This document shows, one piece after another, positions 32,691 to 61,930 of a stretch of DNA of 64,000 nucleotides. Below the pieces are notes generated by a model. The model did not search any database. It was not told the DNA's origin and worked only from the letters and a program-made list of their open reading frames with translations. Every line of letters begins with the position of its first letter. Within the stretch, counting starts at the first letter, position 1. Source of the DNA: a virus; IMG/VR virus record IMGVR_UViG_3300045988_177154, positions 64,001 through 128,000 of that record. One strand, 5' to 3'. The translations under genes were made by a program, and so were the position numbers.

Positions 32691-33590
32691 ATGAATAAAA
32701 TTAAATTATTAAGTGTTTTAACTTTATCTACCGTAGTTTTGGGTGCCTGTTCTTTGTTACCTAAATCAACAGAAAATAAAACTGAAACAACTGAACAAGT
32801 AACAACTACTAGTAAAGAAGATTCAGTTAAAGAGAAAGTCACAAAGGATGCTACAGTTCTTTTAGATTCTGTCTTAACTACAGATAATGCTAAATTTAAG
32901 AAAGTTTATGGGGAAACCTATGACAAATGGACTGATGCAATTATTGCCGTTCAAACTAGTGAAAAAATTAAGGAAGATGGTCTTACTCCAGCTTCTGAAT
33001 ATTCTGTACAATGGGTAAAAGATTTTCCAATTGAAACACCAGAAGAAACAATTTCTAACTTCCTTAAAGTAAGACGAAATCTCTTTCAGAAAATTGTAAA
33101 TTACAATATTAAAGATGTTGTAATTGATGATTCGGGAAATACTGCAACTGTTACATTTACATCTAAGAAGTTACATTCTCTTGGTTTAGCCTCATCAGTA
33201 AGAACAGTTCTAACTGAACTAATTGGGGGAATTGATAACCTCGGTAAATATAACCAAGCAGGTTCTTCTGAAACCGTTAAACGTTATCAAAACTTACTTT
33301 CTTATTGGATTTTCCGTCACTTATACAAACATGACTTTGCCATTTACTCTAATGTTGATGCTAACTTATCTCATGTTCCATTTACAAAAGGTGAATTTGA
33401 CACTGAGATTAAACTCACAAAGGATAAAGATGGCAATTGGGTGATTTCTCAAGATGATTATAAGACTTTGCTATCAGAATTGGTAGATAGAACTGAAGGC
33501 TATGATACAATAGACCGTTCAGGACTTCCTAATAAGAAAGCAACTGACTCATCTGAAACATCTACAGACAAAGATAAATCAAAAATTTAA
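32691..33590 (+). CDS. lipoprotein
   Basis: 299 aa. Signal peptide with lipobox LSTVVLGAC; Ser/Thr/Lys-rich linker; AGGAG RBS. Confidence 0.75.
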   Translation: MNKIKLLSVLTLSTVVLGACSLLPKSTENKTETTEQVTTTSKEDSVKEKVTKDATVLLDSVLTTDNAKFKKVYGETYDKWTDAIIAVQTSEKIKEDGLTPASEYSVQWVKDFPIETPEETISNFLKVRRNLFQKIVNYNIKDVVIDDSGNTATVTFTSKKLHSLGLASSVRTVLTELIGGIDNLGKYNQAGSSETVKRYQNLLSYWIFRHLYKHDFAIYSNVDANLSHVPFTKGEFDTEIKLTKDKDGNWVISQDDYKTLLSELVDRTEGYDTIDRSGLPNKKATDSSETSTDKDKSKI

Positions 33591-49525: not shown

Positions 49526-49553
49526 TTTTCCATATAGAAAAGGAGTTTAAAAA

Positions 49554-50645
49554 TTGGAAAAAAGCAGAAAAGAAAAAACGACAGATAAAAAATTGCTTCT
49601 AAAGCGATTTCTCATAGTACTTTTAATCATTCTATCGTGTGGAATGGCTTATTCTTATTACTTAGTAAAAAATGCTGAATCTAAATTGGAAGTAACTTAT
49701 AAACCAATAGAAAATCATGAAGAAAATAAAGTTATCGAAGCTACTAAATCAATGTCTATTCTTTTAATGGGAGTAGATACTGGAAATAGTGAAAGAACAG
49801 AAACATGGGCTGGTAATAGTGATAGCATGCTTGTTATGACTATCAATCCTAAAACAAAGAAAACAACAATTACAAGCTTAGAACGAGATATACTTACAGA
49901 AATTGAACATGATGGAGAAACAATTCAAGCTAAATTAAATGCAGCTTATCAAATGGGTGGAGTTGATTTAGCAATTCCTACTATTGAAAAAATGCTAAAT
50001 ATGAAGTTTGACCATTACTTGTTAATCAATATGAATGGCTTAGCTAAATTAGTCGATGCTGTTGGTGGAGTTGATGTTGAAAATAAATTAGGATTTCCTA
50101 TTACTATCCAAGACCAAGAAGTAGATAATCAAATTGTAATTGGAACAGGTAAACAACACTTAAATGGCGAGGAAGCATTAGTTTATTCAAGAATGAGATA
50201 CCAAGACCCAGAGGGTGATTATGGACGACAAAAACGCCAACGTGAAGTTATCCAAGCTATTATTTCTAAAATGATTTCATTTGATAGCTTAGGTAATTAT
50301 TCTGAAATTCTTGAAGCAATAAGTACTAATATTCAAACAGATATTCCGTTAAATTCAAGCAATGTGATGAATTTATTAGGCTATAAGAGTAGCTTGAACA
50401 ATATTGAACAATTCCAACTTGAAGGTGATGATGCTACTATTGCAGGCATTAGTTATCAAATCGCTAAAGCAGATAGTTTATTAGAAATTCAAAATAGAAT
50501 TAGAGAAGAACTTGGCGAAGATAAAGTAACTAAATTAAAGACAAATGCAGTTATAAATGGAAGTACAAGTCATAAAGATTCAGATGAACCTAAAAGTGTA
50601 AATAATGATGATGATTCATATTTTACTTACAAGAAAGAAGAATAA
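49554..50645 (+). CDS. LytR-CpsA-Psr (LCP) family protein
   Basis: 363 aa, TTG start after AAAGGAG. N-terminal TM. SILLMGVDTG...NSDSMLVMTINPKTKKTTITSLERD...RMRYQDPEGDYGRQKRQREV are LCP motifs. Confidence 0.8.
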   Translation: MEKSRKEKTTDKKLLLKRFLIVLLIILSCGMAYSYYLVKNAESKLEVTYKPIENHEENKVIEATKSMSILLMGVDTGNSERTETWAGNSDSMLVMTINPKTKKTTITSLERDILTEIEHDGETIQAKLNAAYQMGGVDLAIPTIEKMLNMKFDHYLLINMNGLAKLVDAVGGVDVENKLGFPITIQDQEVDNQIVIGTGKQHLNGEEALVYSRMRYQDPEGDYGRQKRQREVIQAIISKMISFDSLGNYSEILEAISTNIQTDIPLNSSNVMNLLGYKSSLNNIEQFQLEGDDATIAGISYQIAKADSLLEIQNRIREELGEDKVTKLKTNAVINGSTSHKDSDEPKSVNNDDDSYFTYKKEE

Positions 50646-50647
50646 GA

Positions 50648-51055
50648 ATGATTTTACGATTTCAAGTACTTGAACATGAAAAAAGACCAAAAGTTATAGA
50701 TTTTGAATTTGATAGCATTAGCAAAGCACTTGATTTTCTTATGAAAGGGCGACCATTATCTGATTTTAATTTTGATGTAAGTCAATACTTGCTTTACACA
50801 AGAGGCAATATTGATAGTATTGTTTATCAAGTAACTCTATTAGATAAAGAGAGTGGAAAGAATATTGCTTTAGAAGATTTGACTTTCGAAGTGATTACTA
50901 GATATATTGATATGCAAGAATTTATTGAAAAGGTTTGTTTAGAAGATGAGTTGGAAGCTTATGCAGAAGAAGCCAAAGAATTATATCCGGGCTCAGCTTC
51001 ACTACTTATGCCAATTCATACTTACAATGGATTACCAACAGAAAGAGTGGTTTAG
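50648..51055 (+). CDS. hypothetical protein
   Basis: 135-aa ORF immediately after the LCP gene. Confidence 0.55.
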   Translation: MILRFQVLEHEKRPKVIDFEFDSISKALDFLMKGRPLSDFNFDVSQYLLYTRGNIDSIVYQVTLLDKESGKNIALEDLTFEVITRYIDMQEFIEKVCLEDELEAYAEEAKELYPGSASLLMPIHTYNGLPTERVV

Positions 51056-51076
51056 ACCACTCTTATTTTGTTATGG

Positions 51077-51105
51077 TTGACTTTTCATAAATCTTGTTAT
51101 ATAAT
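51077..51105 (+). promoter_or_regulatory. sigma70-like promoter
   Basis: TTGACT 51077-51082, 17 nt, TATAAT 51100-51105. Confidence 0.55.
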
Positions 51106-51139
51106 ACAATAGAAATGAAAGAATAAAGGAGTTTTTAAT

Positions 51140-52102
51140 TTGAAGAAATATTTTATTTTAGGCGCTATGTTATTTAACTTTACTCATACAACAGTTCATG
51201 CAGATTCACCAACTATTCAAGATTCTGCTAAAGGAGAACTATTGTCTGATACTTCTGTTTCAACATTAACAGAATACAAAGAAAAAATTGCTAAACTATC
51301 AGAACTTACAACAAAAGAAAAAGAAGATTTCTTTAAGGAGCTTTATGCAGCTTCATCTAAAAATGATTTTGAAAAAGTTCTAAAAAAAGCTAATTCAAAA
51401 AACAATCAACACGTTATCGAAAGACAACAAAAAGAAAAAATTGCCAAAGAAAAAGTAAAATCAGAAAATGATAAAAAACCTATGCAAGTATTTGAATTGA
51501 CTGCTATTTATGAATCTGGCAATCGTAACCCTGGAGCTATTTTAGGAACACTTGAAGATGGTGCTGGAATGAATTATGGCACATATTCATTAACTCAAAA
51601 ATATACAATGAAACCATATTTAGAATTTTTAAGTAAAAATTATCCTGAGCTACGCTCTCAATTAACAGGTGAAATTAACTCTGATGAATTTAATGCTTCA
51701 TGGAAAGCTTTGGGAGAAACAGAAACAGAAAAATTTAAAGCTTCTCAAGCACAATATATTTTTGAAACTAATATTATGCCCGTATTAGAAAAACTTAAAA
51801 AAGAGACTGGAGTAGATTTCCTAGACGGAACTCACTCAATTGGTTCTATTGGAATGATTTCAGGTATGATTCATAATGCTGGTCACGCATGGTACTCAAT
51901 TATTAAAGAAGCTGCTATTACAACTAAAAATGAATCATCACAATTTAATGATAAAGCATTTGTTGAACGTATTGGCGGTTGGGTAAGAGATAACTACTCT
52001 GGAGTATACTCACAATCAATCCGTAACCGATACTCTAAACAAACACCTCAAGAAAAAGAACGTACAGAACTATTCACTTACACTAAGAAAGAAAATCTAT
52101 AA
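51140..52102 (+). CDS. secreted protein (possible cell-wall glycosidase)
   Basis: 320 aa, TTG start after AAAGGAG. Signal peptide MKKYFILGAMLFNFTHTTVHA. The C-terminal domain with IYESGN...DGAGMNYGTYS vaguely recalls chitosanase/lysozyme-like folds; the functional call is weak. Confidence 0.45.
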   Translation: MKKYFILGAMLFNFTHTTVHADSPTIQDSAKGELLSDTSVSTLTEYKEKIAKLSELTTKEKEDFFKELYAASSKNDFEKVLKKANSKNNQHVIERQQKEKIAKEKVKSENDKKPMQVFELTAIYESGNRNPGAILGTLEDGAGMNYGTYSLTQKYTMKPYLEFLSKNYPELRSQLTGEINSDEFNASWKALGETETEKFKASQAQYIFETNIMPVLEKLKKETGVDFLDGTHSIGSIGMISGMIHNAGHAWYSIIKEAAITTKNESSQFNDKAFVERIGGWVRDNYSGVYSQSIRNRYSKQTPQEKERTELFTYTKKENL

Positions 52103-52116
52103 AAGGAGCTTTAATT

Positions 52117-53103
52117 ATGCTAAAACAAAAAGATAATAAATTTTACATTGGAAAAGAAGAAGTAACACTATTTGCTATTTATTTACCAGATTTATTTACA
52201 GATGTTCCAAGTGATTACTATTTCTATTTTAATCCAAAGAACAATAAATTTGAAATGGCTAGCGATAATAGTTTTGCTTATTGGGCTTCTCAAGTCTTTT
52301 ATGATAGTAGTTTTATTGTTCTTGCTCAATATAAAAAATCAGAACGAATTGATTTAATTAACGATAAAACATTCTTATTTAAGTATTTTTCTGACACAAT
52401 GGATAATGACGAAGACCGCCAAATCTTTTTGGAACATGGTAAAGAAGAAATTGATAAGATTCATGCTTCATATGAAAATATGAAAAGACTTCTTGCTGGA
52501 GTAGGTGCTGGATTATTTGACTCAGAAAAATATATTGTCCAATGGCTGCAGAAAGAATACGGGGAAAATTTAATCTTTAGTATTACTCCAAATGACTATG
52601 GCTATCTATTAAAAATTCATGAATATAATAAAGTTGCACAATATTTACATAAATCTAATTTCAATAAAGACTGGGGAAAGAAAAGAGTCAAAACCGAGTT
52701 AAACAATTTAAAATATGAATTAGCTTTTCAAAGAGCAATTACTCGTTCACTTGAAAGTGTAAAGGAATACGAAAAAGAAATAATCAAAGAAAAAGCTAAA
52801 AATATTTTATCAGATTGCAATATTGGTAAAATCGATAGCATTACAAGTAGAATTGAGAACAACGAAATTATTATGATGGCAAGACTTATCTTATTTAGTG
52901 GTGATTATCTTACTATTCACTTTGCTAAGGATTTTACTATAACACGAATTGCAAAATCAATTAAAGACAAAGGCCAGGAAGAAATTATTGATGGTATTAC
53001 TTATATAAAACCAGGCTCTTTTACAGAAACATTTGCTAATATTAGTACAAAAATCAACTTGGAAGAAACTGATAAATGGTTACCAATTTTGGATAACTTA
53101 TAA
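52117..53103 (+). CDS. hypothetical protein
   Basis: 328-aa ORF, AAGGAG RBS. Confidence 0.6.
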   Translation: MLKQKDNKFYIGKEEVTLFAIYLPDLFTDVPSDYYFYFNPKNNKFEMASDNSFAYWASQVFYDSSFIVLAQYKKSERIDLINDKTFLFKYFSDTMDNDEDRQIFLEHGKEEIDKIHASYENMKRLLAGVGAGLFDSEKYIVQWLQKEYGENLIFSITPNDYGYLLKIHEYNKVAQYLHKSNFNKDWGKKRVKTELNNLKYELAFQRAITRSLESVKEYEKEIIKEKAKNILSDCNIGKIDSITSRIENNEIIMMARLILFSGDYLTIHFAKDFTITRIAKSIKDKGQEEIIDGITYIKPGSFTETFANISTKINLEETDKWLPILDNL

Positions 53104-53122
53104 AAACTTATCTCATTCCTTG

Positions 53123-53151
53123 TTGACAAATCAGTTACTTTATTATATAAT
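53123..53151 (+). promoter_or_regulatory. sigma70-like promoter
   Basis: TTGACA 53123-53128, 17 nt, TATAAT 53146-53151 (TATATAATATAA context). Confidence 0.6.
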
Positions 53152-53172
53152 ATAACTACAAATCACAAAGGA

Positions 53173-54351
53173 ATGAAAACTATGAACTTATTAGAACAAT
53201 ACAAACAGTTACAGAAAACAAACTTATCAAAAGATGGCGATATGCAGCTAGGTATCGCTTACAAAAAAGAAAATGGATTGACTACAGTAAAATACCTTCA
53301 TGGTGGAGTAGATTTTAATAATCCTTTATATAGACAAGCTCGTGGATTAACACTAGACTTGAATGGAAAAGTAATTTTACGAGGATTTGAAAAATTCTTT
53401 AACTGGAAACAATTAACAGAATATGAAAATTATTCAAAGGAATTTAAAAAAGTATACTCAGAAGTAGAATATATCCCTAATCATAAATATAATTTCTATG
53501 AAAAGTTGGATGGTTCACTAATTCTCTTAGCAGAGTATAAGAATCGTTTTGTAGCTGCAACTACTTCATCATCTTATAATCCATATACTCAAACTGCTCT
53601 TAAATGGTTCCACCAAAAAGAAAACCATAGAGAATTGCTTAACTATCTAAGAGCTAAAAATATTACATTAGCATTTGAATACATTTCAATCAAAAACCCA
53701 ATCGTAATTCATTATACTCATACTGATTACGTTTTAATTGGAGCTCATGAAAACAAAACAGGTAAACGCTACTCACAAGAACAATTAAACAAAATTGCTA
53801 AACGTTTTGGATTTAACCAACCTAAAGTTTTCCAATATACTTTTGAAGAAATTCAAGAAGTTATGAGCAATGCTAAAGATATTGAAGGCTTCGTGCTAGA
53901 AAATACTTATGGAAAACTTATTAAATTTAAAACTGACGAATGGTTCCGCTTGAAAGATTACTACGGTATCTTCTTCGGACCACTAACAAATTCAAAAATT
54001 TCTACAATTATTGAAAGCTATCTTGCTGATGAAATTGATGACCTAATCGCTGTTGAACAACAACACGAACATTACAAACATTTAGGATTGCTTGACACTA
54101 CTCTAACTCATGCTAAATATTTTGAAGATGAAGTTCTAAAAGCTTATAAAGTTACAAAACATTTATCAGACAAAGAACTTGGCTTGAATTGGAAAGATTA
54201 TATGGAATCATATGCTTTGCCATGTGTATTTAATATAAGAAAAGGTGTTGATTGGAGAATACAAAGAAAAGGTGAAGGCCCAGTTACATTAGCATTATTA
54301 GTTCAAACAAAAGTAAAACAAGAAAGAGAGGAAGAATTATTAAATGGATAA
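53173..54351 (+). CDS. T4 RnlA-like RNA ligase 1
   Basis: 392 aa. ARGLTLDLNGKVILRGFEKFFNW parallels T4 Rnl1 CRGIMFEMDG...RPMEKFFNL. Motif I YEKLDGSL (KxDG). Confidence 0.75.
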   Translation: MKTMNLLEQYKQLQKTNLSKDGDMQLGIAYKKENGLTTVKYLHGGVDFNNPLYRQARGLTLDLNGKVILRGFEKFFNWKQLTEYENYSKEFKKVYSEVEYIPNHKYNFYEKLDGSLILLAEYKNRFVAATTSSSYNPYTQTALKWFHQKENHRELLNYLRAKNITLAFEYISIKNPIVIHYTHTDYVLIGAHENKTGKRYSQEQLNKIAKRFGFNQPKVFQYTFEEIQEVMSNAKDIEGFVLENTYGKLIKFKTDEWFRLKDYYGIFFGPLTNSKISTIIESYLADEIDDLIAVEQQHEHYKHLGLLDTTLTHAKYFEDEVLKAYKVTKHLSDKELGLNWKDYMESYALPCVFNIRKGVDWRIQRKGEGPVTLALLVQTKVKQEREEELLNG

Positions 54352-54841
54352 GATTATTAACAATATGAGATACACTGACACTCATGTTTATTTCTTTACG
54401 GACCAAGCTCCGTTTTCAAACTTTTATAAAACAAGATTTTATTATAAGGGATATAACTTGCAATTTTCTGAGCAAGGATTTATGATTGAGAAAGCATTGT
54501 TATTTGATAATAGCAAAGCGAGTTTAATCGCTTATGAAAAACACCCTTATCAAGTTAAAATGCTTGGCCGTAAAGTGAGAAATTACAATGAAGCAAAATG
54601 GAATGAAGTACGTTATGATAAAATGGTAGAAGTGCTTCGTGCTAAATTTTCTCAAAATGAAGATTTGAAACAAATCTTACTTGAAACAGGTGACCGTATT
54701 CTAGTCGAAGGCTCTCCTTATGATAAGATTTGGGGCGTAAAAATCGACTGGAAAGATGATAAAATTCTTGACGAAAAGAATTATAAAGGAATGAACTTGT
54801 TAGGTAAGGCACTTATGCAAGTCAGAAGCGAGCTTAAATAG
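54344..54841 (+). CDS. NADAR (YbiA/DUF1768) domain protein
   Basis: 165 aa. FSNFY, FSEQGFMIEKALLF, MLGRKVRNYNEAKWNEVRYDKMVEVLRAKFSQNEDLKQILLETGDRILVEGSPYDKIWG matches the YbiA/NADAR pattern closely. Confidence 0.8.
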   Translation: MDKIINNMRYTDTHVYFFTDQAPFSNFYKTRFYYKGYNLQFSEQGFMIEKALLFDNSKASLIAYEKHPYQVKMLGRKVRNYNEAKWNEVRYDKMVEVLRAKFSQNEDLKQILLETGDRILVEGSPYDKIWGVKIDWKDDKILDEKNYKGMNLLGKALMQVRSELK

Positions 54842-54950
54842 ATTTTGAGGGTCGATATATCGTCACTAGCGAAACGCTAAGATAGTTAAAACTGAATTTC
54901 GATAAATGTATCGACTTAACGAAAAAACAGCTCAGAAACAGTTTTAAAGA
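54841..54950 (-). repeat. R element copy 7 (inverted orientation)
   Basis: The reverse complement reads AAAACTGTTTCTGAGCTGTTTTTTCGTTAAGTCGATACATTTATCGAAATTCAGTTTTAACTATCTTAGCGTTTCGCTAGTGACGATATATCGACCCTCAAAATC. Confidence 0.8.
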
Positions 54951-55048
54951 GAGTTACTAAATAGAGCAACTCTCTTTTTCATTTGACTTTTTAGGTAAGA
55001 TATTGTAAAATAAAGATTACAATAAAAATAAAATAGTAAGGGATAAAT

Positions 55049-56263
55049 ATGAAAGATAATAAAACTGAAATTGAACAACTATCTCGGAGAGAAGTTTTTA
55101 AAATGACTCAAGAAACAAAACGAAAAAAACGTAGTAAAAGAACAAGACTTCTAATTACACTTATTACTGTTGGAATTATTGGTGGAATTGCTATTGAGGG
55201 TGTAAATCTTTTATCAATCTATAATAGTAGTAAGGCTTGGCAAAAACAATCTAAAACGCCTATTGCTTCATTAGAACCTTATATGCTCTATCTAAGCCAA
55301 GAGGATATGGATAATCTTTCAGAATATACTTCAAGATTAAGTGTTATCTATGATAGTAATAAAGGTGTATTTGCTGAGGGAGTTACTCAAAAGGATTTAG
55401 ATGAGTTACAAAAAGAATTTGAAAAATTAGCGCCCTCACTCAAAGAAAAAGAAGAAGCTAAATATAAATTAGTAAGTAATATGTGGAGTATGAAATCTGA
55501 CTATGATGCAATGTGGAATAAAGAACATACTGCATTATTAGACTCTACTACACCTAAAACAGTAAGTGATTATGTGGATAAACACTGGAAAATCATGGAT
55601 TCATATTTAGAAGATGATTCTATTCAAAAAGAATGGCTGATTAACACTTATAATGAATTAAATAAATTAAAAGATGATACTGCTACAATCTCTGCTTTGT
55701 TCAATATGTTTAATTCAACTTTTGATGTATCTGACAAAAAGATTATTGTTAAGAAAGATGTAAGTTCATCATCTATTGCAGAATGGAGTAAAGTTAAAGC
55801 AAATCTTAACTTCAGTTGGCCTATCGTTTCTAATTACATGACTGAAATTATTAACAACTCAACTAAGATTTTAGAAAAACATGATAAAGCTATCAATCTT
55901 TATACAGAATATAGTGGAGCTGCAGAAAGTAAAAATGCTTTTGACACTTGGAGTAAAACATATTCACAATATAATAACAGTATGATTAACTTGCCGAACT
56001 TTGTTGGAAAAGACATTGAAACTGTAAAATCTTGGGCTAAAGAAAATGGAATTACACTCATTATCAATAAAGTAGAAGATTCTGCTAAGAAAGATACAGT
56101 AATTTCACAAAATCCAACTAATTCTGATTATGCTAAAATTCTAAAAGGTAGTGCATTTACTGTTAATATTGCTAAAGAAAAAACAACTACTACTGAAACA
56201 AAAGATAAAGACAAAGAAAATAAAAAAGAAACAACAGAAGCAACAACTAAGGAGAATAACTAA
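55049..56263 (+). CDS. membrane-anchored protein with C-terminal PASTA domain
   Basis: 404 aa. Basic stretch plus TM LLITLITVGIIGGIAI. C-terminal NFVGKDIETVKSWAKENGITLIINKVEDSAKKDTVISQNP...FTVNIAK looks like a PASTA repeat. Confidence 0.6.
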   Translation: MKDNKTEIEQLSRREVFKMTQETKRKKRSKRTRLLITLITVGIIGGIAIEGVNLLSIYNSSKAWQKQSKTPIASLEPYMLYLSQEDMDNLSEYTSRLSVIYDSNKGVFAEGVTQKDLDELQKEFEKLAPSLKEKEEAKYKLVSNMWSMKSDYDAMWNKEHTALLDSTTPKTVSDYVDKHWKIMDSYLEDDSIQKEWLINTYNELNKLKDDTATISALFNMFNSTFDVSDKKIIVKKDVSSSSIAEWSKVKANLNFSWPIVSNYMTEIINNSTKILEKHDKAINLYTEYSGAAESKNAFDTWSKTYSQYNNSMINLPNFVGKDIETVKSWAKENGITLIINKVEDSAKKDTVISQNPTNSDYAKILKGSAFTVNIAKEKTTTTETKDKDKENKKETTEATTKENN

Positions 56264-58497
56264 TGAAGATTTTAAAAAAGATTATGAAATTTATTTTAAA
56301 GCTCTTTAAATGGAGTTTAATATTAGGATTTATCCTTGCTCTTGTTGGTTTCTTAGCTGGAACAATTTATAGTGCAGGTGTAATCAAACAAACTCCTAAA
56401 ATTACTGAAGAAATGATTACAAAAGCAACAGGTGGAACTACAAATATGTACGATTCAACTGGCCAAGTAATCTATTCTGATACTGAGCATAGACGAGATT
56501 ATATTCGTTATGATGAAATTCCAAATAAATATATTGAGCTATTACTTGCAACTGAAAATAAGAATTATTGGAATGAAAAAGGTTGGTCATTTGAAGCTAT
56601 CCTAGCTGCAATTAAAAGCAAAGGTGCTCGTGGTGGTTCTACTATTGAACAACAACTTATTAAAAATCTTGTTTTCTCAAGTGACATTAAAGACAGAACG
56701 ATTGACCGTAAGATTAAAGAAATCTGGCTCGCTTCACAAATGGATTTAAACTTTGACAAGAAACAAATCTTGGAATGGTATATTAACTTAATCAATATGG
56801 GTGAGGGCTCTTATGGAGCAAATACTATTGCTATTACTTATTACGGTCAAAGTTTGAAAGATTTAACTGGTGATGATGCAGTAACATTATCTAAATTAGC
56901 TACAATCGCTGGATTAGGACAAGCTCCATCAGCTTACAATCTATATGATAACCCCGAATTAGTAGAAGAACGAAGAAATATTGTTTTACTAAGTGCTCTT
57001 AATAATAATAAGATTACTGAAGAACAATATGAAGAAGCTAAAAAAGTTCCAATTCAAGAGGGCTTGAAAGAGCGTTATTGGAGAAATGGAACAGTGTTAG
57101 CACAAACAAAAGAACATAATGCTTATGTAACTTCTGCTCTTAAACAAGTTCAAGAATTGGGCTATGATTTAGAAAAAACACCAATGCAAATCTATACTGC
57201 TTTAGACCCAAATGTTAACTCACAAGTAAAATCTACCTTTGATAATTTTTCTGGTTATAAAGATGATGAAGAACAAATGGCAGCTACTGTTATTGACCCT
57301 AATACAGGTTATGTATTAGCACAATATGGGGGAAGAAATACAGAAGCATTTGGTTTGAATAGAGCAACACAACAAACACGTAGTTCAGGTTCGTCTATTA
57401 AACCATTTGAAGATTATGGTCCCGCTATTGAATATAATGGACTAGGAACAAATTATATTTTAGATTCAAGTAATTATCTTTACCCAGGTACAAATGTAGT
57501 AGCACATAACTTTGGTGGCGCAACTTATGGAAATGTAACTATGGCATTCGCTCTTAAAATGTCATTAAACACTCCAGCTATTCGTATCTTGAATAATGTT
57601 GTTGGTTCAAACAATGCTAAGAAATTCCTAGCTGGAATGAACTTAGATACAGAAGAAACCTATGGAGATTCAACAGCTTTAGGATTGAATGTTTCAACTG
57701 AACAAATGGCAGCTGCTTCTGCTACTCTTGCTAATAAAGGAATGTATAAGAAACCACAATATATTACTAAATTGGTATTTAATGATGGTTCAGAAAAAGA
57801 AATTAAATTTAATCCAACAAGAGCTATGAAAGAAAGTACTGCATATATCTTATTGAAGATGATGGCAGAAGTCCCTAAACCTACTGGTACAGCTACTGAT
57901 GCTATTATCAATCACTATAAGAGTTATTCTGTTAAAACAGGTACTGTAGGATACGGTCCCGAAGTTGGTTGGGCAACAAGTAATGATGCTTCTGATACTT
58001 GGGTAGTTGGAACAACTAAGAATGTTTCTATTGCTATTTGGAATGGCTATGATTCCCCTAATGAATACGGACATAGTGTTGATGTTTATGCTCACTCACA
58101 ACAACGAGTATTTAAACAATTGATGTTAGCAATGAATGAAGGCAAAGATGTTAGCGATTGGGAAAAACCAGATACTGTAACAAGTTCTGACCCTAACAAC
58201 ATGAAACCAACTGATGTTGATGTTAACTCATCTTATATTGATAAATTCCCAGAGCCATATTTCACATTATCAGACACTAGTGTTAATAATAGTATCAATG
58301 CTTATTACAAAAAAGATAAATTATTAAAAGTGGAAGATGCTGGAGTAGAAAAATACAAAGTTCCAAGTGATTATAAAGAAGTTATTGATTGGCAATCAAA
58401 AGCAAATGCAGATATGCTAAGATTATTCAATGCTTATCCAAACAATCCTTTATACCCAGCACTTATCAACAATAATGCTTATTATCAAGAACCATAA
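56263..58497 (+). CDS. class A penicillin-binding protein (glycosyltransferase GT51 + transpeptidase)
   Basis: 744 aa. GT51 motifs ATENKNYWNEKG, GGSTIEQQLIKN, RKIKEIWLA. Transpeptidase motifs SSIKP (SxxK), SLN (SxN), KTGT. Confidence 0.85.
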   Translation: MKILKKIMKFILKLFKWSLILGFILALVGFLAGTIYSAGVIKQTPKITEEMITKATGGTTNMYDSTGQVIYSDTEHRRDYIRYDEIPNKYIELLLATENKNYWNEKGWSFEAILAAIKSKGARGGSTIEQQLIKNLVFSSDIKDRTIDRKIKEIWLASQMDLNFDKKQILEWYINLINMGEGSYGANTIAITYYGQSLKDLTGDDAVTLSKLATIAGLGQAPSAYNLYDNPELVEERRNIVLLSALNNNKITEEQYEEAKKVPIQEGLKERYWRNGTVLAQTKEHNAYVTSALKQVQELGYDLEKTPMQIYTALDPNVNSQVKSTFDNFSGYKDDEEQMAATVIDPNTGYVLAQYGGRNTEAFGLNRATQQTRSSGSSIKPFEDYGPAIEYNGLGTNYILDSSNYLYPGTNVVAHNFGGATYGNVTMAFALKMSLNTPAIRILNNVVGSNNAKKFLAGMNLDTEETYGDSTALGLNVSTEQMAAASATLANKGMYKKPQYITKLVFNDGSEKEIKFNPTRAMKESTAYILLKMMAEVPKPTGTATDAIINHYKSYSVKTGTVGYGPEVGWATSNDASDTWVVGTTKNVSIAIWNGYDSPNEYGHSVDVYAHSQQRVFKQLMLAMNEGKDVSDWEKPDTVTSSDPNNMKPTDVDVNSSYIDKFPEPYFTLSDTSVNNSINAYYKKDKLLKVEDAGVEKYKVPSDYKEVIDWQSKANADMLRLFNAYPNNPLYPALINNNAYYQEP

Positions 58498-58502
58498 AAA
58501 AT

Positions 58503-58531
58503 AAAGGTAGCAATCAAATTGCTACCTTTTT
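58503..58531. terminator. bidirectional terminator
   Basis: AAAGGTAGCAAT-CAA-ATTGCTACCTTT flanked by A and T runs, between convergent genes. Confidence 0.7.
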
Positions 58532-59522
58532 ATAAGTTATCTCCTAATATAATTTCTTTTTTCTTTACTTCTATATTCTCACCAATATTATCATTCATTA
58601 AGAAGAAACAACTGGAACTAGGAAGCATGCCCTCTGTTGTGAATATATAATATTGATTATCATATTCATAAAATGATTTAATTTCACTTATTCTATTTTT
58701 ATAAACTACAAATAAGTTATAACATTCTAACTCTTGATTATATTGTAATCTTTCAAATGGCAAATTATCAATATTAACAAAATAATAATAAGATTGATTA
58801 GGTATTTTAGTTATAATTTTAAGCTCTAATCTTTTTAGTAACCTTTCTAATTCAATCTTTTTCAAATGTAATTTAACAATTTTCTTTTTCTCTTTATATA
58901 TACTTCTTGATTCACTGTCAAATTTTCTTAATATTTCTTTATAATTATTAAGTGCTTCATTTTCCTTTTTGGAAAATTCTATTAAATCATTAGTATATTC
59001 ATGAGTAAATCTTTCTATATGTTTTGATTTTAGATATGCCGGCACTTGATTGTATTTTCCATTCAATATGCTATCAATAGTCAAGCTGCCTGCTGTAATT
59101 TTCAAATTTGAAATTTTTCTAATATGACTAGCTAATTTTGCTTTGTGAGCTATGATAAGCACTCTCTTTTCATTCAATACATTTTCATATAATTTAGCAG
59201 CTTCTTGTCTAGCAAGCCATTCCTTTGAATGAAAATAACCCTTGACATAATTTTCATGTTTTTTTATAATAGTATCAATGGTAATTATTTTTTGCTCTAA
59301 ATCATTTATTTTATTTTTGAGTGATGTATATTCTTTTAAATCTTCATCATAACAATTAGTATAACCTAATTTCTCAAAAATAGTATCTTTGAAATATAGC
59401 AAATAAAATTTAGCTTCGGAATAAGAAGAAAAAAGAATATTATTAAAGACTAAATCATTATCAACTGAGTCTTTATAGATTTTAATGAGATTAGATTGTT
59501 TTTCTATGTAGTATTTATTCAT
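58530..59522 (-). CDS. hypothetical coiled-coil protein (lone minus-strand gene next to TnpB element 2)
   Basis: 330-aa ORF, AGGAGAAG RBS. Very AT-rich, Lys/Glu/Ile/Asn-rich. No recognisable motif. Confidence 0.55.
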   Translation of the reverse strand: MNKYYIEKQSNLIKIYKDSVDNDLVFNNILFSSYSEAKFYLLYFKDTIFEKLGYTNCYDEDLKEYTSLKNKINDLEQKIITIDTIIKKHENYVKGYFHSKEWLARQEAAKLYENVLNEKRVLIIAHKAKLASHIRKISNLKITAGSLTIDSILNGKYNQVPAYLKSKHIERFTHEYTNDLIEFSKKENEALNNYKEILRKFDSESRSIYKEKKKIVKLHLKKIELERLLKRLELKIITKIPNQSYYYFVNIDNLPFERLQYNQELECYNLFVVYKNRISEIKSFYEYDNQYYIFTTEGMLPSSSCFFLMNDNIGENIEVKKKEIILGDNL

Positions 59523-59563
59523 TCTATATTCTTCTCCTATAAAAAATGTTCATTAAGTTTGAT

Positions 59564-60949
59564 ATAATGTGTGATAACTGTAACAAAAAATCATAAAATC
59601 CAATAAAAAAGGAGGTGAAATTATGTACTTAACTGAAAAAGAGATTATCTATTCAACTGATGAAAGATTTAACTTGATTAAAGATTTGTGCCATTTAAGC
59701 AAAAATCTTTATAATGCAAGTCTTTATGATGTTAGACAATATTACTTTGAAACTAAATCATACAGAACTTGGCAATCACAAGTGCCAATTTTTACTAAAA
59801 CTAAAAATACTGATTATTATGCACTTCAATCTCATGTTGCTAGTGAAGTGATAAAGCAAGTTGGTAGACAATTTATTAGTTTTTTCAATAATAAATCTAA
59901 CAAAAAGAAACGAATCCCTAAATACAAAGATAAAAATGGTTATAACGTTGTTACTTTCAATAATCGTGCAATTTCTAGGAAGATTGAGTTTGATGAGGAT
60001 AAACAACTTTATACTCATACTCTATGTAAGAAAAGTTATAATCTTAAAATTCAATCAACTAAATCAAATATTAAAATGGTAAAATTTGTTTATGATGAAG
60101 TTAATGACTTAATCAAGTGTTACAAGATTTATGAAGTTGAACAACCTAAGTTGAAAAATGATAATTCACGGTATTTCTCAATTGACCCAGGGTTAAATAA
60201 TATTGTTGCTATTTACAATAACATTGGAATCAGACCGTTATTATACAATGGCAGACCAATCAAAAGTATTAACCAATATTACAATAAAACAACTGCTAAA
60301 TTGAGGTCAGAATTGCCCACTAATATTAAATCATCTAAAAGATTAAAACAACTATCTTTAAAGAGAAATAACAAAATTGATTATGAGATGCACAAAATTT
60401 CAACTCATATTATCAATGAAGCCGTAAAAAACAACATTTCAAAAATCTTTATTGGCAATAACATTGGTTGGAAAAATGAAATTAACATTGGCAGAAGAAA
60501 TAACCAAAATTTTGTTAATATTCCTCATACAAAACTATTCAATCAATTGCTATATAAAGGGTCATTAAATGACATTGAAGTTATCTTTACAGAAGAGAGT
60601 TACACTTCAAGAGCAAGTTTCTTTGATAAAGATGAATTACCTATTTATGATGAAACTAGCAAGTATAAATTCTCTGGTAGAAGAATAAAACGTGGCTTAT
60701 ATAAAGATAGTAAAGGCAATATATGGAATGCTGATTTAAATGGAGCAGCCAATATTATGAGAAAATGTTCAGACAAAGCCTATAAAGGTATAAGAAAAAC
60801 CAAAGAAATGATGCGACAGCCAATTCTTATAACATTATAAGTAGCACTCAATTTAATATAATGAGAGTGTAGAGGCATTTGTAGGTATGCCATTATGAGA
60901 AGTTAAATCTTAATTTAACGAGTCTATAAAAATCAAATCATATTTGATT
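59564..60949 (+). mobile_element. TnpB-only IS1341-type element 2 (tentative ends)
   Basis: TTGAT at 59559-59563 precedes a 59-nt leader to tnpB. Downstream similarity to the solo remnant at 32616-32652 ends at TTTGATT (60943-60949). No tnpA. Confidence 0.4.
59623..60840 (+). CDS. tnpB: TnpB (IS200/IS605 OrfB, IS1341 group), 405 aa
   Basis: FSIDPGLNNIVAI (RuvC I), IFIGNNIGWKNEINIGRRNNQNFVNIPH, EESYTSRASF (RuvC II region), NADLNGAANIMRK (RuvC III). AAGGAGG RBS. Confidence 0.85.
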   Translation: MYLTEKEIIYSTDERFNLIKDLCHLSKNLYNASLYDVRQYYFETKSYRTWQSQVPIFTKTKNTDYYALQSHVASEVIKQVGRQFISFFNNKSNKKKRIPKYKDKNGYNVVTFNNRAISRKIEFDEDKQLYTHTLCKKSYNLKIQSTKSNIKMVKFVYDEVNDLIKCYKIYEVEQPKLKNDNSRYFSIDPGLNNIVAIYNNIGIRPLLYNGRPIKSINQYYNKTTAKLRSELPTNIKSSKRLKQLSLKRNNKIDYEMHKISTHIINEAVKNNISKIFIGNNIGWKNEINIGRRNNQNFVNIPHTKLFNQLLYKGSLNDIEVIFTEESYTSRASFFDKDELPIYDETSKYKFSGRRIKRGLYKDSKGNIWNADLNGAANIMRKCSDKAYKGIRKTKEMMRQPILITL

Positions 60950-60986
60950 AACCTATAAAGAATATCTAAAAAAGCGAGGAAAATAA

Positions 60987-61748
60987 ATGAAAAATAAGAA
61001 AAAAGCTGATTGGCTGGACTGGCTATTAAGAATTGCAATTGTACTAGGAATTATTGGAACAATTTATTTTAGCTATAGTCCAGCAAAAAATTATTTAACT
61101 GCTAAGCAAGAAGAAGCAAAGATTGAAGAAGTTGCTAAGAAAGTAGTAGAAAACACACACGATTACCCAGATGTAAAAGAAATTAAGAAATCAACAAATG
61201 AAGATGTAGTTGGTTGGATTAGAGTACCTGGTACTAATATTGATGAACCAATTTTACAAACTACTGACAATGAATTTTACTTAAATCACTCTTTAACTAA
61301 GGAAGAGTTAGATGTTGGAAGTATTTTCCTAGATGCTAAAGCAAATTCTAATTACGATAACAACTTGAATTTCGTATTCGGCCACAATACTTACATTGAT
61401 AATAAATTTACTCAATTAAGAAAATTCTCTGACCCAGAATTTAATAAAGCTAATAAAACTTTCTATATCTTTACTGATAAGAATGAAAAGATTACTTACA
61501 GAATTATCGGACAAGGTTTAATTCCACCAGTATTTCCTCTTTATACCGAAGATAATGTGAAATTAACCGTAGATAATTTAACCGAATACCAAAAACACCT
61601 GAAAGAATTTACAGATATTACTCAAGAAGATATTGAGGATATTCATGTTGACTCTAAACTTGCAATCTTAACTACTTGTTTATCTTACAACAATTCTGAC
61701 GGGCGACAAATTGTAGTAGGATTAGAAGTAAGTCGTGAAAAATATTAA
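60987..61748 (+). CDS. srtB: class B sortase
   Basis: 253 aa. TM anchor. DVVGWIRVPGTNIDEPILQ, GSIFLD, VFGHN and LAILTTC parallel S. aureus SrtB DIVGWIKLSGTSLNYPVLQ, GSIFMD, LYGHH and IMTLSTC. Confidence 0.8.
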   Translation: MKNKKKADWLDWLLRIAIVLGIIGTIYFSYSPAKNYLTAKQEEAKIEEVAKKVVENTHDYPDVKEIKKSTNEDVVGWIRVPGTNIDEPILQTTDNEFYLNHSLTKEELDVGSIFLDAKANSNYDNNLNFVFGHNTYIDNKFTQLRKFSDPEFNKANKTFYIFTDKNEKITYRIIGQGLIPPVFPLYTEDNVKLTVDNLTEYQKHLKEFTDITQEDIEDIHVDSKLAILTTCLSYNNSDGRQIVVGLEVSREKY

Positions 61749-61804
61749 ATAAAACAAGAAAAATAAAAAGAAGTAAAATTCTTTTTATTTTTTTTATTTT
61801 TGTG

Positions 61805-61833
61805 TTGACAAACCAAAAATTTTCTTGTATAAT
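61805..61833 (+). promoter_or_regulatory. sigma70-like promoter
   Basis: TTGACA 61805-61810, 17 nt, TGTATAAT ending at 61833. Confidence 0.55.
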
Positions 61834-61871
61834 ATGACTATAAAATAAAAAATAAAAATTAAATTTATGTG

Positions 61872-61900: not shown

Positions 61901-61930
61901 ATACTTAGAAAAAGAAATGAGGAATTAAAC

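What the first reader, a model, noticed from the sequence alone, without database searches (positions are those of the whole stretch)
49554..61748. Host-like cell-envelope module on a phage-like element: LCP protein, secreted protein, PASTA protein, class A PBP and sortase B, with a TnpB element embedded
**What the sequence shows**
- Within 12 kb lie:
  - an LCP (LytR-CpsA-Psr) ligase-family protein
  - a signal-peptide protein
  - a TM plus PASTA protein
  - a complete bifunctional PBP with all GT51 and SxxK/SxN/KTG motifs intact
  - a class B sortase with the His (FGHN) and Cys (LTTC) motifs
- A lipoprotein gene is additionally embedded in the tRNA island (32691).

**Why it stands out**
- Such wall-building enzymes are highly unusual cargo for a phage.
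- The same stretch also contains typical phage or anti-defence genes (Rnl1, NADAR) and R elements. It is therefore not obviously a chromosomal flank.

**Possible roles**
- Remodelling of the envelope for superinfection exclusion.
- Maintenance of wall synthesis in a long infection or carrier state.
- Anchoring a phage-encoded surface protein. No obvious NPxTG-type substrate is seen in this window.
Basis: partly seen in the sequence, partly recalled or inferred. Interest (0 to 1): 0.65.

Follow-up and report, generated by a model that had tools for sequence, protein, structure and literature searches.

The report
Wall-building genes on giant oral plasmid-like element
The cell-wall genes are real, intact and under selection. 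They sit on a ~325 kb circular extrachromosomal element of mouth bacteria that matches the "Inocle" giant plasmid-like elements published in 2025, so the finding is largely already known and the element is not shown to be a phage.

Summary
**Observation: confirmed.**
- Window 49554-61748 encodes an LCP ligase, a secreted VgrG3C-like muramidase, a TM+PASTA protein overlapping a class A PBP, a class-B-like sortase, and a strain-specific TnpB insertion.
- Catalytic motifs are present, and dN/dS is 0.05-0.15 against sister strains.

**What the element is.**
- It is neither a chromosomal flank nor a chimera.
- Contigs of 324.8-329 kb with different breakpoints indicate a circular ~325 kb replicon.
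- Virus catalogues list it as phage (IMG/VR; "Siphoviridae sp. ctHip2").
- I saw no capsid, terminase or tail gene in roughly 120 kb inspected, and PHROGs gave almost nothing.
- The same contigs carry TcpE plus a TcpF/VirB4-like ATPase, a ParA-like ATPase, SecA2/SecY2, DNA Pol III alpha and a gyrase/topo IV-like subunit.
- This matches the "Inocle" elements (Kiguchi 2025, oral Streptococcus), where a bifunctional PBP and a sortase are the conserved wall genes.
- The Inocle marker InoC could not be located, so membership is inferred.

**New details.**
- The LCP is 56% identical to streptococcal BrpA.
- A PASTA partner travels with the PBP in four lineages.
- This sortase is class-B-like.
- An LPNTG adhesin occurs in a sister strain.

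**Verdict.** Real and biologically sensible, but essentially published. Interest is modest.

The parts
49554..50645 (+). LCP (LytR-CpsA-Psr) glycopolymer-to-peptidoglycan ligase of BrpA/LytR type, with an N-terminal TM anchor.
   Evidence: - Pfam PF03816, 7e-47.
- NCBIfam ligase_LytR 418.8 bits, cut-off 450.
- PDB 8qty BrpA 2e-96, 56% identity over 278 aa; S. agalactiae gbs0355 1e-90.
- dN/dS 0.15.
50648..51055 (+). 135-aa ORF of unknown function, hypervariable between strains. Probably co-transcribed with the LCP gene.
   Evidence: - No family hit.
- 61-81% aa identity to sister strains.
- A terminator-like hairpin at 51043-51064 overlaps its 3' end.
51140..52102 (+). Secreted VgrG3C-like (lysozyme/chitosanase-fold) peptidoglycan hydrolase candidate with a GA-like module.
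   Evidence: - PF21277 2e-14 and GA module 1e-4.
- PDB 4noo VgrG3C 1e-3, with the YES..R.PG motif aligned.
- Promoter-like site 51077-51105, 11/12.
- dN/dS 0.08-0.11.
52117..53103 (+). 328-aa ORF of unknown function, hypervariable.
   Evidence: - Only a sub-threshold Pfam hit.
- 53-70% aa identity to sister strains.
53173..54841 (+). Rnl1-type RNA ligase (53173-54351) and NADAR (54344-54841). An unrelated unit interleaved in the neighbourhood.
   Evidence: - PF09511 3e-23 and PF08719 3e-43.
- 12/12 consensus promoter-like site at 53123-53151.
55049..56263 (+). Bitopic membrane protein. It has a TM helix, a ~235-aa helical ectodomain of unknown fold and one C-terminal PASTA domain. Its stop codon overlaps the PBP start codon.
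   Evidence: - PF03793 2e-7.
- Paired with the PBP in L014 (33% id), L016 (25%) and L093 (30%).
- Family of 53 representatives at E<=1e-10.
- AF2 pLDDT 83.7. In Foldseek only the PASTA domain matches (StkP PASTA4 5nod); the helical part has no match.
56263..58497 (+). Class A (bifunctional GT51 + transpeptidase) penicillin-binding protein with an N-terminal TM anchor.
   Evidence: - Pfam. NCBIfam strep_PBP1A and PBP_1a_fam are the best models but score below their cut-offs.
- S. aureus PBP2 3dwk 1e-74.
- Motifs. E98, E153, S377, K380 and K558-T559-G560 are invariant across 17 family members.
- dN/dS 0.05-0.06.
58503..58529 (.). 12-bp-stem hairpin between the convergent PBP gene and the 330-aa gene. 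Terminator-like.
   Evidence: Terminator scan.
58530..59522 (-). 330-aa coiled-coil-like ORF of unknown function with no TM segment. Not an evident envelope protein.
   Evidence: No family hits.
59533..60953 (+). Strain-specific insertion carrying a TnpB gene (ORF 59623-60840). No TnpA is present.
   Evidence: - PF01385 and PF07282.
- The block is absent from L007, L008 and L009, whose flanks join directly.
60987..61748 (+). Membrane-anchored sortase, class-B-like, with the His-Cys-Arg triad present.
   Evidence: - PF04203.
- TIGR03064 118.5 bits, cut-off 153.75.
- All 15 PDB hits are class B or class-B-fold; best is 5b23, 4e-24.
- dN/dS 0.07-0.09.
32691..33590 (+). Lipoprotein candidate inside the tRNA island.
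   Evidence: - Lipobox VLGAC.
- Weak DUF5105 hit.

Best explanation
**What it is**
- The region is part of a ~325 kb circular, low-GC (about 30%) giant extrachromosomal element of oral Lactobacillales, most likely Streptococcus.
- It is of the kind published in 2025 as 'Inocle'. It is not a demonstrated phage.
- The wall genes are functional resident genes of this element lineage.

**How it most likely works (inferred from family knowledge; no step tested biochemically)**
1. The PASTA protein and the class A PBP are co-translated from overlapping genes.
2. The PBP polymerises lipid II and cross-links the glycan strands.
3. Its partner's PASTA domain and helical ectodomain probably target or regulate it at sites of nascent peptidoglycan.
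4. The BrpA/LytR-type LCP ligase transfers undecaprenyl-linked glycopolymers onto that peptidoglycan.
5. The sortase attaches element-encoded surface proteins to lipid II or the wall. A sister strain encodes a collagen-binding-type adhesin with an LPNTG signal next to SecA2/SecY2.
6. The secreted VgrG3C-like hydrolase opens the wall locally.

**Net effect**
- The element carries its own toolkit to build and decorate the host's surface.
- The likely uses are adhesion and colonisation and/or cell-to-cell transfer.
For: **Element identity**
- Contigs of 324,805, 324,989 and 329,023 bp come from separate assemblies. Two of them break at different places.
- Sister strains reach 326-357 kb.
- IMG/VR contigs that carry the same PBP (96-97% aa) also carry TcpE plus an AAA_10 ATPase. 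That ATPase matches the C-terminal half of TcpF (122.6 bits) and VirB4 weakly.
- Those contigs also carry a ParA-like ATPase, SecA2/SecY2, a DNA_topoisoIV-domain (gyrase/topo IV A-type) subunit and a split Pol III alpha.
- These traits match the Inocle description (PMC12340149):
  - size 245-395 kb and circular;
  - oral origin;
  - rich in insertion sequences;
  - VirB4 present;
  - gyrase and Pol III present;
  - a bifunctional transglycosylase and a sortase conserved in all taxa;
  - LPXTG proteins present.

**Function**
- Motifs are present.
- dN/dS is 0.05-0.15 for all five envelope genes.
- The PASTA-PBP pair is conserved in four lineages.
- A full adhesin with signal peptide, LPNTG, TM segment and basic tail lies on IMG/VR contig 3300007220_000167, which also carries this PBP. 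TIGR01167 scores it above its cut-off.

**Host**
- The LCP is 56% identical to streptococcal BrpA.
- The best NCBIfam models are streptococcal LytR and PBP1A.
Against: **Membership is not proven**
- The defining Inocle marker InoC (PF13814) was not found in the parts I could read.
- VirD4 was not seen.
- The Inocle_004 primers do not match the window or IMG/VR.
- Window GC is 29.6%, against the 32% reported for Inocle alpha to gamma.

**Phage-like traits persist**
- A 22-tRNA island with a GOLLD RNA is present.
- So are RNA ligases, NADAR and PARG.
- NCBI and IMG/VR label these sequences as phage.

**Details that do not fit neatly**
- The paper calls its conserved sortase 'sortase A'. This one is class-B-like, and a related lineage has a non-orthologous class-C-like sortase. 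This gene may therefore not be the family-wide one.
- GT51 motif 1 deviates from consensus (Asp to Asn).
- No biochemical evidence exists for any step.
Confidence: 0.72

Rival explanations
1. The element is a jumbo phage or phage-plasmid held in a carrier state. The wall genes are then auxiliary genes that keep the host envelope intact during a long infection, or that block superinfection.
For: - IMG/VR lists 261-315 kb versions as viral genomes.
- NCBI nr names sister-strain proteins 'Siphoviridae sp. ctHip2', 'Caudoviricetes sp.' and 'Bacteriophage sp.'.
- The window has a 22-tRNA island with a nested-tRNA GOLLD RNA. That RNA class is described from phages and prophages near tRNA islands (PMC12286853).
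- The window and its flanks also hold three or more RNA ligases, NADAR, PARG/Macro, NrdD and a GmrSD-like gene.
- A related 306 kb element carries a T4 rIIB-like gene.
- The Inocle paper reports loss in liquid culture and a 1:15 ratio to host. Both are also compatible with a carrier-state virus.
Against: - No capsid, portal, terminase or tail family appeared in about 120 kb read.
- PHROGs hit 3 of 20 proteins, all in families of unknown function.
- TcpE plus a TcpF-like ATPase and a ParA-like ATPase lie on the same contig. That ATPase matches only conjugative-transposon-like DNA in the phage collection.
- The paper reports 16-fold enrichment in cell pellets over 0.45 um filtrate, and a replichore-type GC skew.
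Confidence: 0.15
2. The element identity is as in the best explanation, but the envelope genes serve the element's own horizontal transfer rather than host colonisation. In this reading the hydrolases open the wall for a type IV secretion channel. The sortase anchors mating adhesins and surface-exclusion proteins. The PBP and LCP repair the wall around the channel. The analogy is to the pCF10 and pCW3 conjugation systems.
For: - TcpE plus a TcpF-like ATPase are present.
- A PilT-like ATPase lies on a sister-strain contig. T2SSE/T2SSF genes lie 2-9 kb from the PBP in a related lineage.
- A related lineage encodes a 916-aa SEC10/PgrA surface-exclusion-domain protein (TIGR04320, 102 bits against a cut-off of 70). 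It has an LPKTS sorting signal and sits 460 bp upstream of its PASTA-PBP pair.
- Two secreted hydrolases with GA-like modules are present: the VgrG3C-like protein here and an SLT-domain protein 1 kb left of the window.
Against: - No complete type IV secretion gene set, relaxase or coupling protein was seen.
- The wall genes in the window lie about 177 kb from the TcpE/ATPase genes.
- The adhesin in the sister strain is of the collagen-binding type typical of host-tissue adhesion.
Confidence: 0.25
3. The stretch is a bacterial chromosomal region, or a chimeric assembly that joins host DNA to a mobile element.
For: - The genes are host-like. The LCP is 56% identical to streptococcal BrpA.
- Most tblastn hits in the phage collection are mis-filed host fragments.
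Against: - The window is 100% identical over 49000-64000 to three assemblies.
- The same order, at 84-93% nucleotide identity, occurs in three HMP-derived IMG/VR contigs.
- Total lengths are equal despite different breakpoints.
- GC and gene orientation are uniform across the window.
- Flanks on both sides are element-like.
- No match of 90% or more was found in the GTDB species genomes scanned, though that scan was weak.
Confidence: 0.02

Closest known systems
Inocle giant extrachromosomal elements of oral Streptococcus (Kiguchi et al., Nat Commun 2025, PMC12340149)
   Same: - Oral origin, circular, 245-395 kb, low GC.
- Insertions of IS-type elements.
- A VirB4-type ATPase, a gyrase-type subunit, Pol III alpha and a RecD/PIF1-like helicase.
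- A TM-anchored bifunctional transglycosylase/transpeptidase and a TM-anchored sortase as conserved wall genes.
- LPXTG proteins.
- Homologues closest to Streptococcus.
   Different: - The InoC marker and VirD4 were not located here.
- Window GC is 29.6% against the reported 32%.
- The paper calls the sortase 'A', whereas this one is class-B-like.
- The paper's text does not mention an LCP ligase, a PASTA partner, SecA2/SecY2, a tRNA island with GOLLD, or the prior listing of such contigs as phages.
Gram-positive conjugative plasmids with sortase-anchored surface proteins and a wall hydrolase (pCF10 PrgA/PrgB/PrgK; pCW3 Tcp locus). Comparison from my own knowledge.
   Same: - TcpE plus a TcpF-like ATPase.
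- A PrgA/Sec10-type surface-exclusion protein with a sorting signal in a related lineage.
- Secreted peptidoglycan hydrolases.
   Different: - Those plasmids are 50-70 kb.
- They rely on the host's sortase and PBPs.
- They carry no tRNA island and no replication machinery of their own on this scale.
Megaplasmids of Bacillus mycoides, Lactobacillus and rhizobia that carry PBP1A-family genes (PLSDB)
   Same: A class A PBP on a large non-chromosomal replicon: 602 plasmid records.
   Different: - At most 36% identity.
- No PASTA partner, sortase or LCP neighbourhood was shown.
- The hosts are cultured.
Jumbo phages with tRNA islands and GOLLD/ROOL RNAs
   Same: - A 22-tRNA island with a GOLLD RNA that holds a nested tRNA.
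- RNA-repair genes and nucleotide-metabolism genes.
   Different: - No virion or packaging genes were seen in the parts read.
- Conjugation-type and partition-type genes are present.
PASTA-bearing wall-synthesis proteins (S. pneumoniae StkP and PBP2x; M. tuberculosis PknB and PonA2)
   Same: A single C-terminal PASTA fold. The best match is StkP PASTA4 (5nod; TM-score 0.72 normalised to the target, rmsd 2.1 A).
   Different: - Here the PASTA domain sits on a separate non-enzymatic membrane protein. Its helical ectodomain has no PDB match.
- That protein's gene overlaps a class A PBP gene, and the PBP itself lacks PASTA.

Membership tests
Inocle (Kiguchi 2025) | Giant circular extrachromosomal replicon, 245-395 kb | tested here: met
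   - Contigs of 324,805, 324,989 and 329,023 bp. The first two break at different points of the same sequence.
- Sister strains reach 326-357 kb.
- Circularity is inferred, not shown by reads.
Inocle (Kiguchi 2025) | Single-copy marker gene InoC (about 454 aa, N-terminal Replic_Relax PF13814) | tested here: inconclusive
   - No PF13814 hit in any protein scanned, nor in the precomputed Pfam lists for about 120 kb.
- A 450-aa ORF (L012:952-2304) and a 456-aa ParA-like ORF (L021:11293-12663) are not InoC.
- About 200 kb of the contig could not be read. The InoC sequences (Zenodo) are not available here.
Inocle (Kiguchi 2025) | VirB4 present | tested here: met
   - A 397-aa AAA_10 protein preceded by TcpE lies on the IMG/VR contigs that also carry this PBP.
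- It matches TcpF positions 466-808 (122.6 bits) and VirB4 weakly.
- Only the ATPase half is present.
Inocle (Kiguchi 2025) | VirD4 present | not tested
   Not seen in the parts read.
Inocle (Kiguchi 2025) | TM-anchored bifunctional transglycosylase/transpeptidase and TM-anchored sortase conserved across the family | tested here: met
   - Both are present in the window.
- PBP homologues at 44-58% identity sit on other giant contigs of 88-366 kb.
- The sortase in lineage L093 is not orthologous to this one.
Inocle (Kiguchi 2025) | Low GC (about 32% in alpha to gamma, 24% in delta) and IS insertions | tested here: inconclusive
   - Window GC is 29.6%, and sister-strain loci are 28.9-31.9%. This lies between the reported values.
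- Two strain-polymorphic TnpB insertions are present.
Inocle (Kiguchi 2025) | Oral habitat and Streptococcus-like homologues | tested here: met
   - The LCP is 56% identical to streptococcal BrpA.
- The best NCBIfam models are streptococcal.
- Oral origin of the samples is inferred from sample labels and from Carr 2020. It was not verified.
Tailed (jumbo) bacteriophage | Major capsid protein, portal, large terminase and tail genes | tested here: inconclusive
   - None found in about 120 kb.
- The remaining ~200 kb is unread.
- Public catalogues call the element a phage.
Class A penicillin-binding protein | GT51 domain with both catalytic Glu residues and the five motifs | tested here: met
   - E98 and E153 are invariant in the family alignment.
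- Motifs 2-5 are present. Motif 1 is TENKNYWNEKG (Asp to Asn, His to Glu).
Class A penicillin-binding protein | Transpeptidase SxxK, SxN and KTG motifs | tested here: met
   S377-S-I-K380, S434-L-N436 and K558-T-G560 are present and invariant across 17 relatives.
Class A penicillin-binding protein | NCBIfam PBP_1a_fam trusted cut-off (508.75 bits) | tested here: not met
   378.8 bits. It is a divergent member, but both Pfam domains score above their gathering thresholds.
LCP glycopolymer ligase | LytR_cpsA_psr domain above threshold, with an N-terminal TM anchor and an extracellular catalytic domain | tested here: met
   - 159.7 bits against a cut-off of 24.6.
- TM segment at residues 13-35.
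- The conserved GVDTG, NSDSM, RMRY and GDYGRQKRQREVIQ blocks are identical to BrpA 8qty.
- The LytR equivalog cut-off is narrowly missed: 418.8 against 450.
Class B sortase | TIGR03064 equivalog cut-off (153.75 bits) | tested here: not met
   118.5 bits. It is the best-scoring sortase class by about 100 bits.
Class B sortase | His-Cys-Arg triad, with closest structures in class B | tested here: met
   - FGHN, LTTC and GRQIVV align to C. perfringens SrtB 5b23 (4e-24).
- All 15 PDB hits are SrtB or SrtB-fold.
Class B sortase | Cognate substrate with a matching sorting signal encoded nearby | tested here: not met
   - No ORF in the window or its flanks has a sorting signal.
- LPNTG and LPKTS proteins occur elsewhere, in sister or related elements.
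IS200/IS605-family TnpB element | OrfB_IS605 (RuvC) plus TNB domains, and presence/absence polymorphism | tested here: met
   - Pfam.
- The 1.4 kb block is absent from L007-L009.
- No TnpA is present. The omega RNA was not examined.

The most novel reading that the evidence does not exclude
**Element.** Inocle-type elements may be neither ordinary plasmids nor ordinary phages. They could be a hybrid lineage that virus catalogues and the plasmid literature each describe in part. They combine a phage-style tRNA/GOLLD island, RNA-repair genes and anti-defence-like genes with conjugation-type genes.

**Wall module.** Their conserved PASTA-partner plus class A PBP pair may be a self-contained, element-specific peptidoglycan synthase. 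The partner would be a new kind of class A PBP regulator with a previously unseen helical ectodomain. It could alter wall architecture or beta-lactam tolerance in commensal streptococci.
Probability: 0.15. Interest if true: 0.7.

Novelty: already known. Interest (0 to 1): 0.33.

Why it matters
- The 2025 paper reports Inocles in about three quarters of people sampled. If they supply their own peptidoglycan synthase, glycopolymer ligase, sortase, adhesins and secretion channel, they could change how abundant commensal streptococci adhere, are seen by immunity and respond to beta-lactams.
- That idea is already in the literature for the PBP and the sortase.
- This check adds four things:
  - These genes are under strong purifying selection.
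  - The PBP has a conserved PASTA partner of unknown fold.
  - This lineage also carries a streptococcal-type LCP ligase and a class-B-like sortase.
  - The same elements have sat in virus catalogues labelled as phages. This bears on the open question of what Inocles are.

Tried and rejected
- **Phage collection.** Megablast of the region found nothing. tblastn hits were below 45% identity, mostly to host fragments mis-filed as phages.
- **PHROGs.** Scans of 20 proteins were almost empty.
- **Inocle_004 primers.** They are absent from the window at up to 3 mismatches. The forward primer is absent from IMG/VR. They are probably strain-specific, so this says little.
- **InoC candidates by size.** Both failed. 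The 450-aa ORF left of the window shows only a faint TnpB TNB signal. The 456-aa ORF next to the ATPase is ParA-like, with no PF13814 even at E<=10.
- **Walking the IMG/VR contig by exact-pattern search.** This yields only about 5 kb per scan. One step found a split Pol III alpha and no InoC, so I stopped.
- **GTDB scan with the LCP.** It used non-conserved peptides and returned an arbitrary set of 28-44% relatives. It is not a nearest-neighbour result.
- **First AlphaFold run of the PASTA protein.** A shallow 9-sequence alignment failed (pLDDT 40). A 44-sequence alignment worked.
- **Is the PASTA partner always next to a PBP?** No. A distant member (L096) is not.
- **Is the sortase of lineage L093 orthologous to this one?** No.

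Full report

Yes. Pfam and NCBIfam confirm every call.
- LCP ligase: 49554-50645, PF03816 at 7e-47.
- Signal-peptide protein: 51140-52102. It is more specifically a VgrG3C-like peptidoglycan hydrolase domain with a weak GA module. It also matches PDB 4noo.
- TM+PASTA protein: 55049-56263.
- Class A PBP: 56263-58497, with Transgly and Transpeptidase domains.
- TnpB: 59623-60840.
- Sortase: 60987-61748. Its best model is class B, at 118.5 bits against a cut-off of 153.75.
- Rnl1 and NADAR lie between these genes.
- The lipoprotein at 32691 has a VLGAC lipobox.

The alignments to solved structures show the catalytic residues.
- **PBP against S. aureus PBP2.** Both GT51 glutamates are present, as are GGSTIEQQ, RKIKE, KKQILEWYIN, RRNIVL, SSIK, SLN and KTG. 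Motif 1 reads TENKNYWNEKG, with Asp changed to Asn and His to Glu. The His is replaced in most relatives too. E98 and E153 are invariant.
- **Sortase.** His, Cys and Arg align to C. perfringens SrtB, and all 15 PDB hits are class B or class-B-fold.
- **LCP ectodomain.** It is 56% identical to streptococcal BrpA.

The clustering is not random. A hydrophobicity scan of 66 non-overlapping ORFs flagged six, and four of them are the LCP, PASTA protein, PBP and sortase of this 12 kb stretch. The other two are the lipoprotein and a minus-strand ORF that is probably not a gene. The secreted hydrolase fell below the scan's threshold.

**2. Anatomy**

It is a neighbourhood, not an operon. Consensus scans suggest separate units:
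- LCP plus a 135-aa ORF, with a hairpin at 51043-51064.
- Hydrolase plus a 328-aa ORF, with a promoter-like site at 51077-51105.
- Rnl1 plus NADAR, with a 12/12 promoter-like site at 53123-53151.
- PASTA plus PBP, with a hairpin at 58503-58529 shared with a convergent 330-aa gene.
- The sortase alone.

The PASTA and PBP genes overlap by their stop and start codons. The TnpB block (about 59533-60953) is missing from three sister strains whose flanks join directly, so it is a recent insertion.

Against those strains (84-93% nucleotide identity), dN/dS values are as follows.

| Gene | dN/dS |
|---|---|
| PBP | 0.05-0.06 |
| Sortase | 0.07-0.09 |
| Hydrolase | 0.08-0.11 |
| PASTA protein | 0.09-0.15 |
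| LCP | 0.15 |

The two unknown ORFs are hypervariable, at 53-81% aa identity. The envelope genes are therefore maintained by selection.

**3. What carries them?**

*An independent replicon.*
- The PBP lies on contigs of 324,805 and 324,989 bp that break at different points.
- Another assembly gives 329,023 bp.
- Sister strains reach 326-357 kb.
- The window is 100% identical over 49000-64000 to three assemblies.
- Together this indicates a circular replicon of about 325 kb. It excludes a chromosomal flank or a chimera.

*Phage labels.*
- IMG/VR holds 261-315 kb versions.
- NCBI nr names sister proteins 'Siphoviridae sp. ctHip2', 'Caudoviricetes sp.' and 'Bacteriophage sp.'.

*No phage hallmark found.*
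- In the window, its flanks and other stretches of the element or sister strains, about 120 kb in all, I saw no capsid, portal, terminase or tail family.
- PHROGs hit 3 of 20 proteins, all in families of unknown function.

*Plasmid-like genes on the same contigs.*
- An alignment-based scan placed an AAA_10 ATPase on the very IMG/VR contigs that carry this PBP.
- That ATPase follows a TcpE gene. It matches the C-terminal half of the conjugal ATPase TcpF, and VirB4 weakly.
- Its only matches among 50,697 phage records are conjugative-transposon-like.
- Next to it lie these genes:
  - a ParA-like ATPase;
  - a glycosyltransferase and an epimerase;
  - SecA2/SecY2;
  - thymidylate synthase;
  - a DNA_topoisoIV-domain (gyrase/topo IV A-type) subunit;
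  - Pol III delta-prime;
  - a split Pol III alpha.

**4. Comparison with the literature**

These traits match 'Inocles' (Kiguchi et al. 2025, PMC12340149). The paper describes them as follows.
- They are giant (245-395 kb), circular, low-GC and IS-bearing.
- They are intracellular, plasmid-like elements of oral Streptococcus.
- VirB4 and VirD4 are present in all of them.
- They carry gyrase, Pol III and a RecD-like helicase.
- They have exactly two cell-wall genes conserved in all four taxa: a TM-anchored bifunctional transglycosylase/transpeptidase and a TM-anchored sortase.
- They also encode LPXTG-like proteins and a signal peptidase.

Membership is inferred, not proven.
- The marker InoC (about 454 aa, PF13814) was not found in what I could read.
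- Two size-matched candidates were tested and rejected.
- The Inocle_004 primers do not match.
- VirD4 was not seen.
- Window GC (29.6%) lies between the reported group means.

**5. What is added here**

*(a) A conserved partner for the PBP.*
- The PASTA protein travels with the PBP in three other lineages, where the PBP is 53-58% identical. The partner is only 25-33% identical.
- Its family has 53 representatives at E<=1e-10 among 1.84 billion proteins.
- 40 of 44 members carry a PASTA domain and no other Pfam domain.
- A confident model (pLDDT 83.7) shows a TM helix, a helical ectodomain and one PASTA domain.
- Only the PASTA part matches solved structures, best StkP PASTA4. The ectodomain has no match.
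- One distant member is not next to a PBP.

*(b) The LCP ligase.* It is of streptococcal type and was not seen within 10 kb of the PBP in four other lineages. It looks like a later, host-derived addition to this lineage.

*(c) The sortase.* It is class-B-like. Lineage L093 has a non-orthologous class-C-like sortase near its PBP. 'The' conserved sortase of the family may therefore be a different gene.

*(d) Substrates exist elsewhere.*
- IMG/VR contig 3300007220_000167 also carries this PBP. It encodes a 526-aa adhesin with a signal peptide and an LPNTG anchor, next to SecA2/SecY2.
- A related lineage has a PrgA/Sec10-type surface-exclusion protein with an LPKTS signal just upstream of its PASTA-PBP pair.

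*(e) PBPs on plasmids are common.* 602 PLSDB records carry a class A PBP homologue.

**6. Mechanism (inferred)**

- The PBP polymerises and cross-links lipid II.
- Its co-translated partner probably targets or regulates it through PASTA binding of nascent peptidoglycan.
- The LCP ligase attaches glycopolymers.
- The sortase attaches element-encoded surface proteins.
- The hydrolase opens the wall locally.

Whether this serves colonisation or the element's own transfer is open. The conjugation-type genes and the surface-exclusion protein make the second use plausible.

**7. Phage or plasmid?**

This is not settled. Phage-like traits are real.
- A 22-tRNA island is present.
- A full-length GOLLD RNA with a nested tRNA lies within it. 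That RNA class is described from phages and prophages near tRNA islands.
- Several RNA ligases, NADAR and PARG are present.
- A T4 rIIB-like gene occurs in a related element.

I rate a phage or phage-plasmid nature at about 0.15.

**8. Verdict**

- The interpretation as unusual phage cargo is only partly supported.
- The core finding, a PBP and a sortase on a giant oral extrachromosomal element, is already published.
- The increments (PASTA partner, LCP, class-B-like sortase, prior phage labels) are modest.

Noticed in passing
window 36689-37142 (+): A full-length GOLLD RNA (Rfam RF02032) scores 156.3 bits against a gathering score of 150, E 7e-42, inside the tRNA island. The odd ARAGORN 'tRNA-??? 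(tgag)' at 36756-36830 lies inside it, as described for tRNAs in GOLLD linker regions. GOLLD is reported from phages and prophages, yet this element matches one published as plasmid-like.
   Followed up: partly
window 30478-37465 and 63144-63219: 22 tRNA genes lie in 7 kb and cover most amino acids, including two tRNA-Glu and two tRNA-Leu. A lone tRNA-Cys overlaps the start of ORF 63173-63778.
   Followed up: no
window 4630-5622 and 11772-18781: Seven paralogous ORFs of about 330 aa (25-42% identity to each other) have no Pfam or PHROG family. Six of them are in tandem.
   Followed up: partly
window 37715-44331: A tandem array of about ten paralogous ORFs of about 170 aa (24-41% identity) lies directly after the tRNA island. 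Function unknown.
   Followed up: no
window 7171-8667 (-): A second TnpB-like gene (498 aa, TNB domain) is present in this strain and in L012. It is absent from strains L010, L011 and L013, which carry other TnpB copies elsewhere. TnpB elements are actively moving in this lineage.
   Followed up: partly
window 262-1278, 9135-9749 (-), 53173-54351; L012:5402-7018: RNA-repair-type genes are unusually dense. There are two RNA_ligase-family proteins (one with a PHA02142 OB domain), an Rnl1, and in the left flank an HD protein plus a Zeta_toxin/AAA_33 kinase-like protein. NADAR (54344-54841) and a PARG/Macro protein (29298-30083) are also present.
   Followed up: no
window 48928-49416: A GreA/GreB-family transcription elongation factor is encoded immediately upstream of the LCP gene (dN/dS 0.06).
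   Followed up: no
window 13902-14681, 19409-20089, 24437-25417: A GmrSD_N-domain protein, a ThiF-family E1-like protein and an AAA_5 (MoxR/McrB-like) ATPase are present. They are possible defence or counter-defence genes.
   Followed up: no
L083:282-2117 and L094:42-3792: Both loci come from IMG/VR sister strains of the same lineage. In L083 the PilT-family ATPase has a ~200-aa insertion between its Walker motifs, possibly an intein. In L094 DNA Pol III alpha is split into 460-aa and 791-aa ORFs.
   Followed up: no
L007 (IMG/VR 3300007663_000073), Rnl1 orthologue: The Rnl1 orthologue in this sister strain has an in-frame stop. All envelope genes there are intact.
   Followed up: no
L012:8394-9332 (about 1 kb left of the window): A second envelope-hydrolase candidate with a GA-like module, this one carrying an SLT lytic transglycosylase domain. 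It parallels the VgrG3C-like protein in the region.
   Followed up: partly
L092 (ERZ27274739 k141_20215, 305,886 bp): Another giant contig has a 44%-identical PBP next to a Rep_3 plasmid initiator, an Rnl1, a MucBP adhesin, a Gad2 defence-like gene and a T4 rIIB-like gene. Plasmid and phage signatures are mixed in one locus.
   Followed up: no
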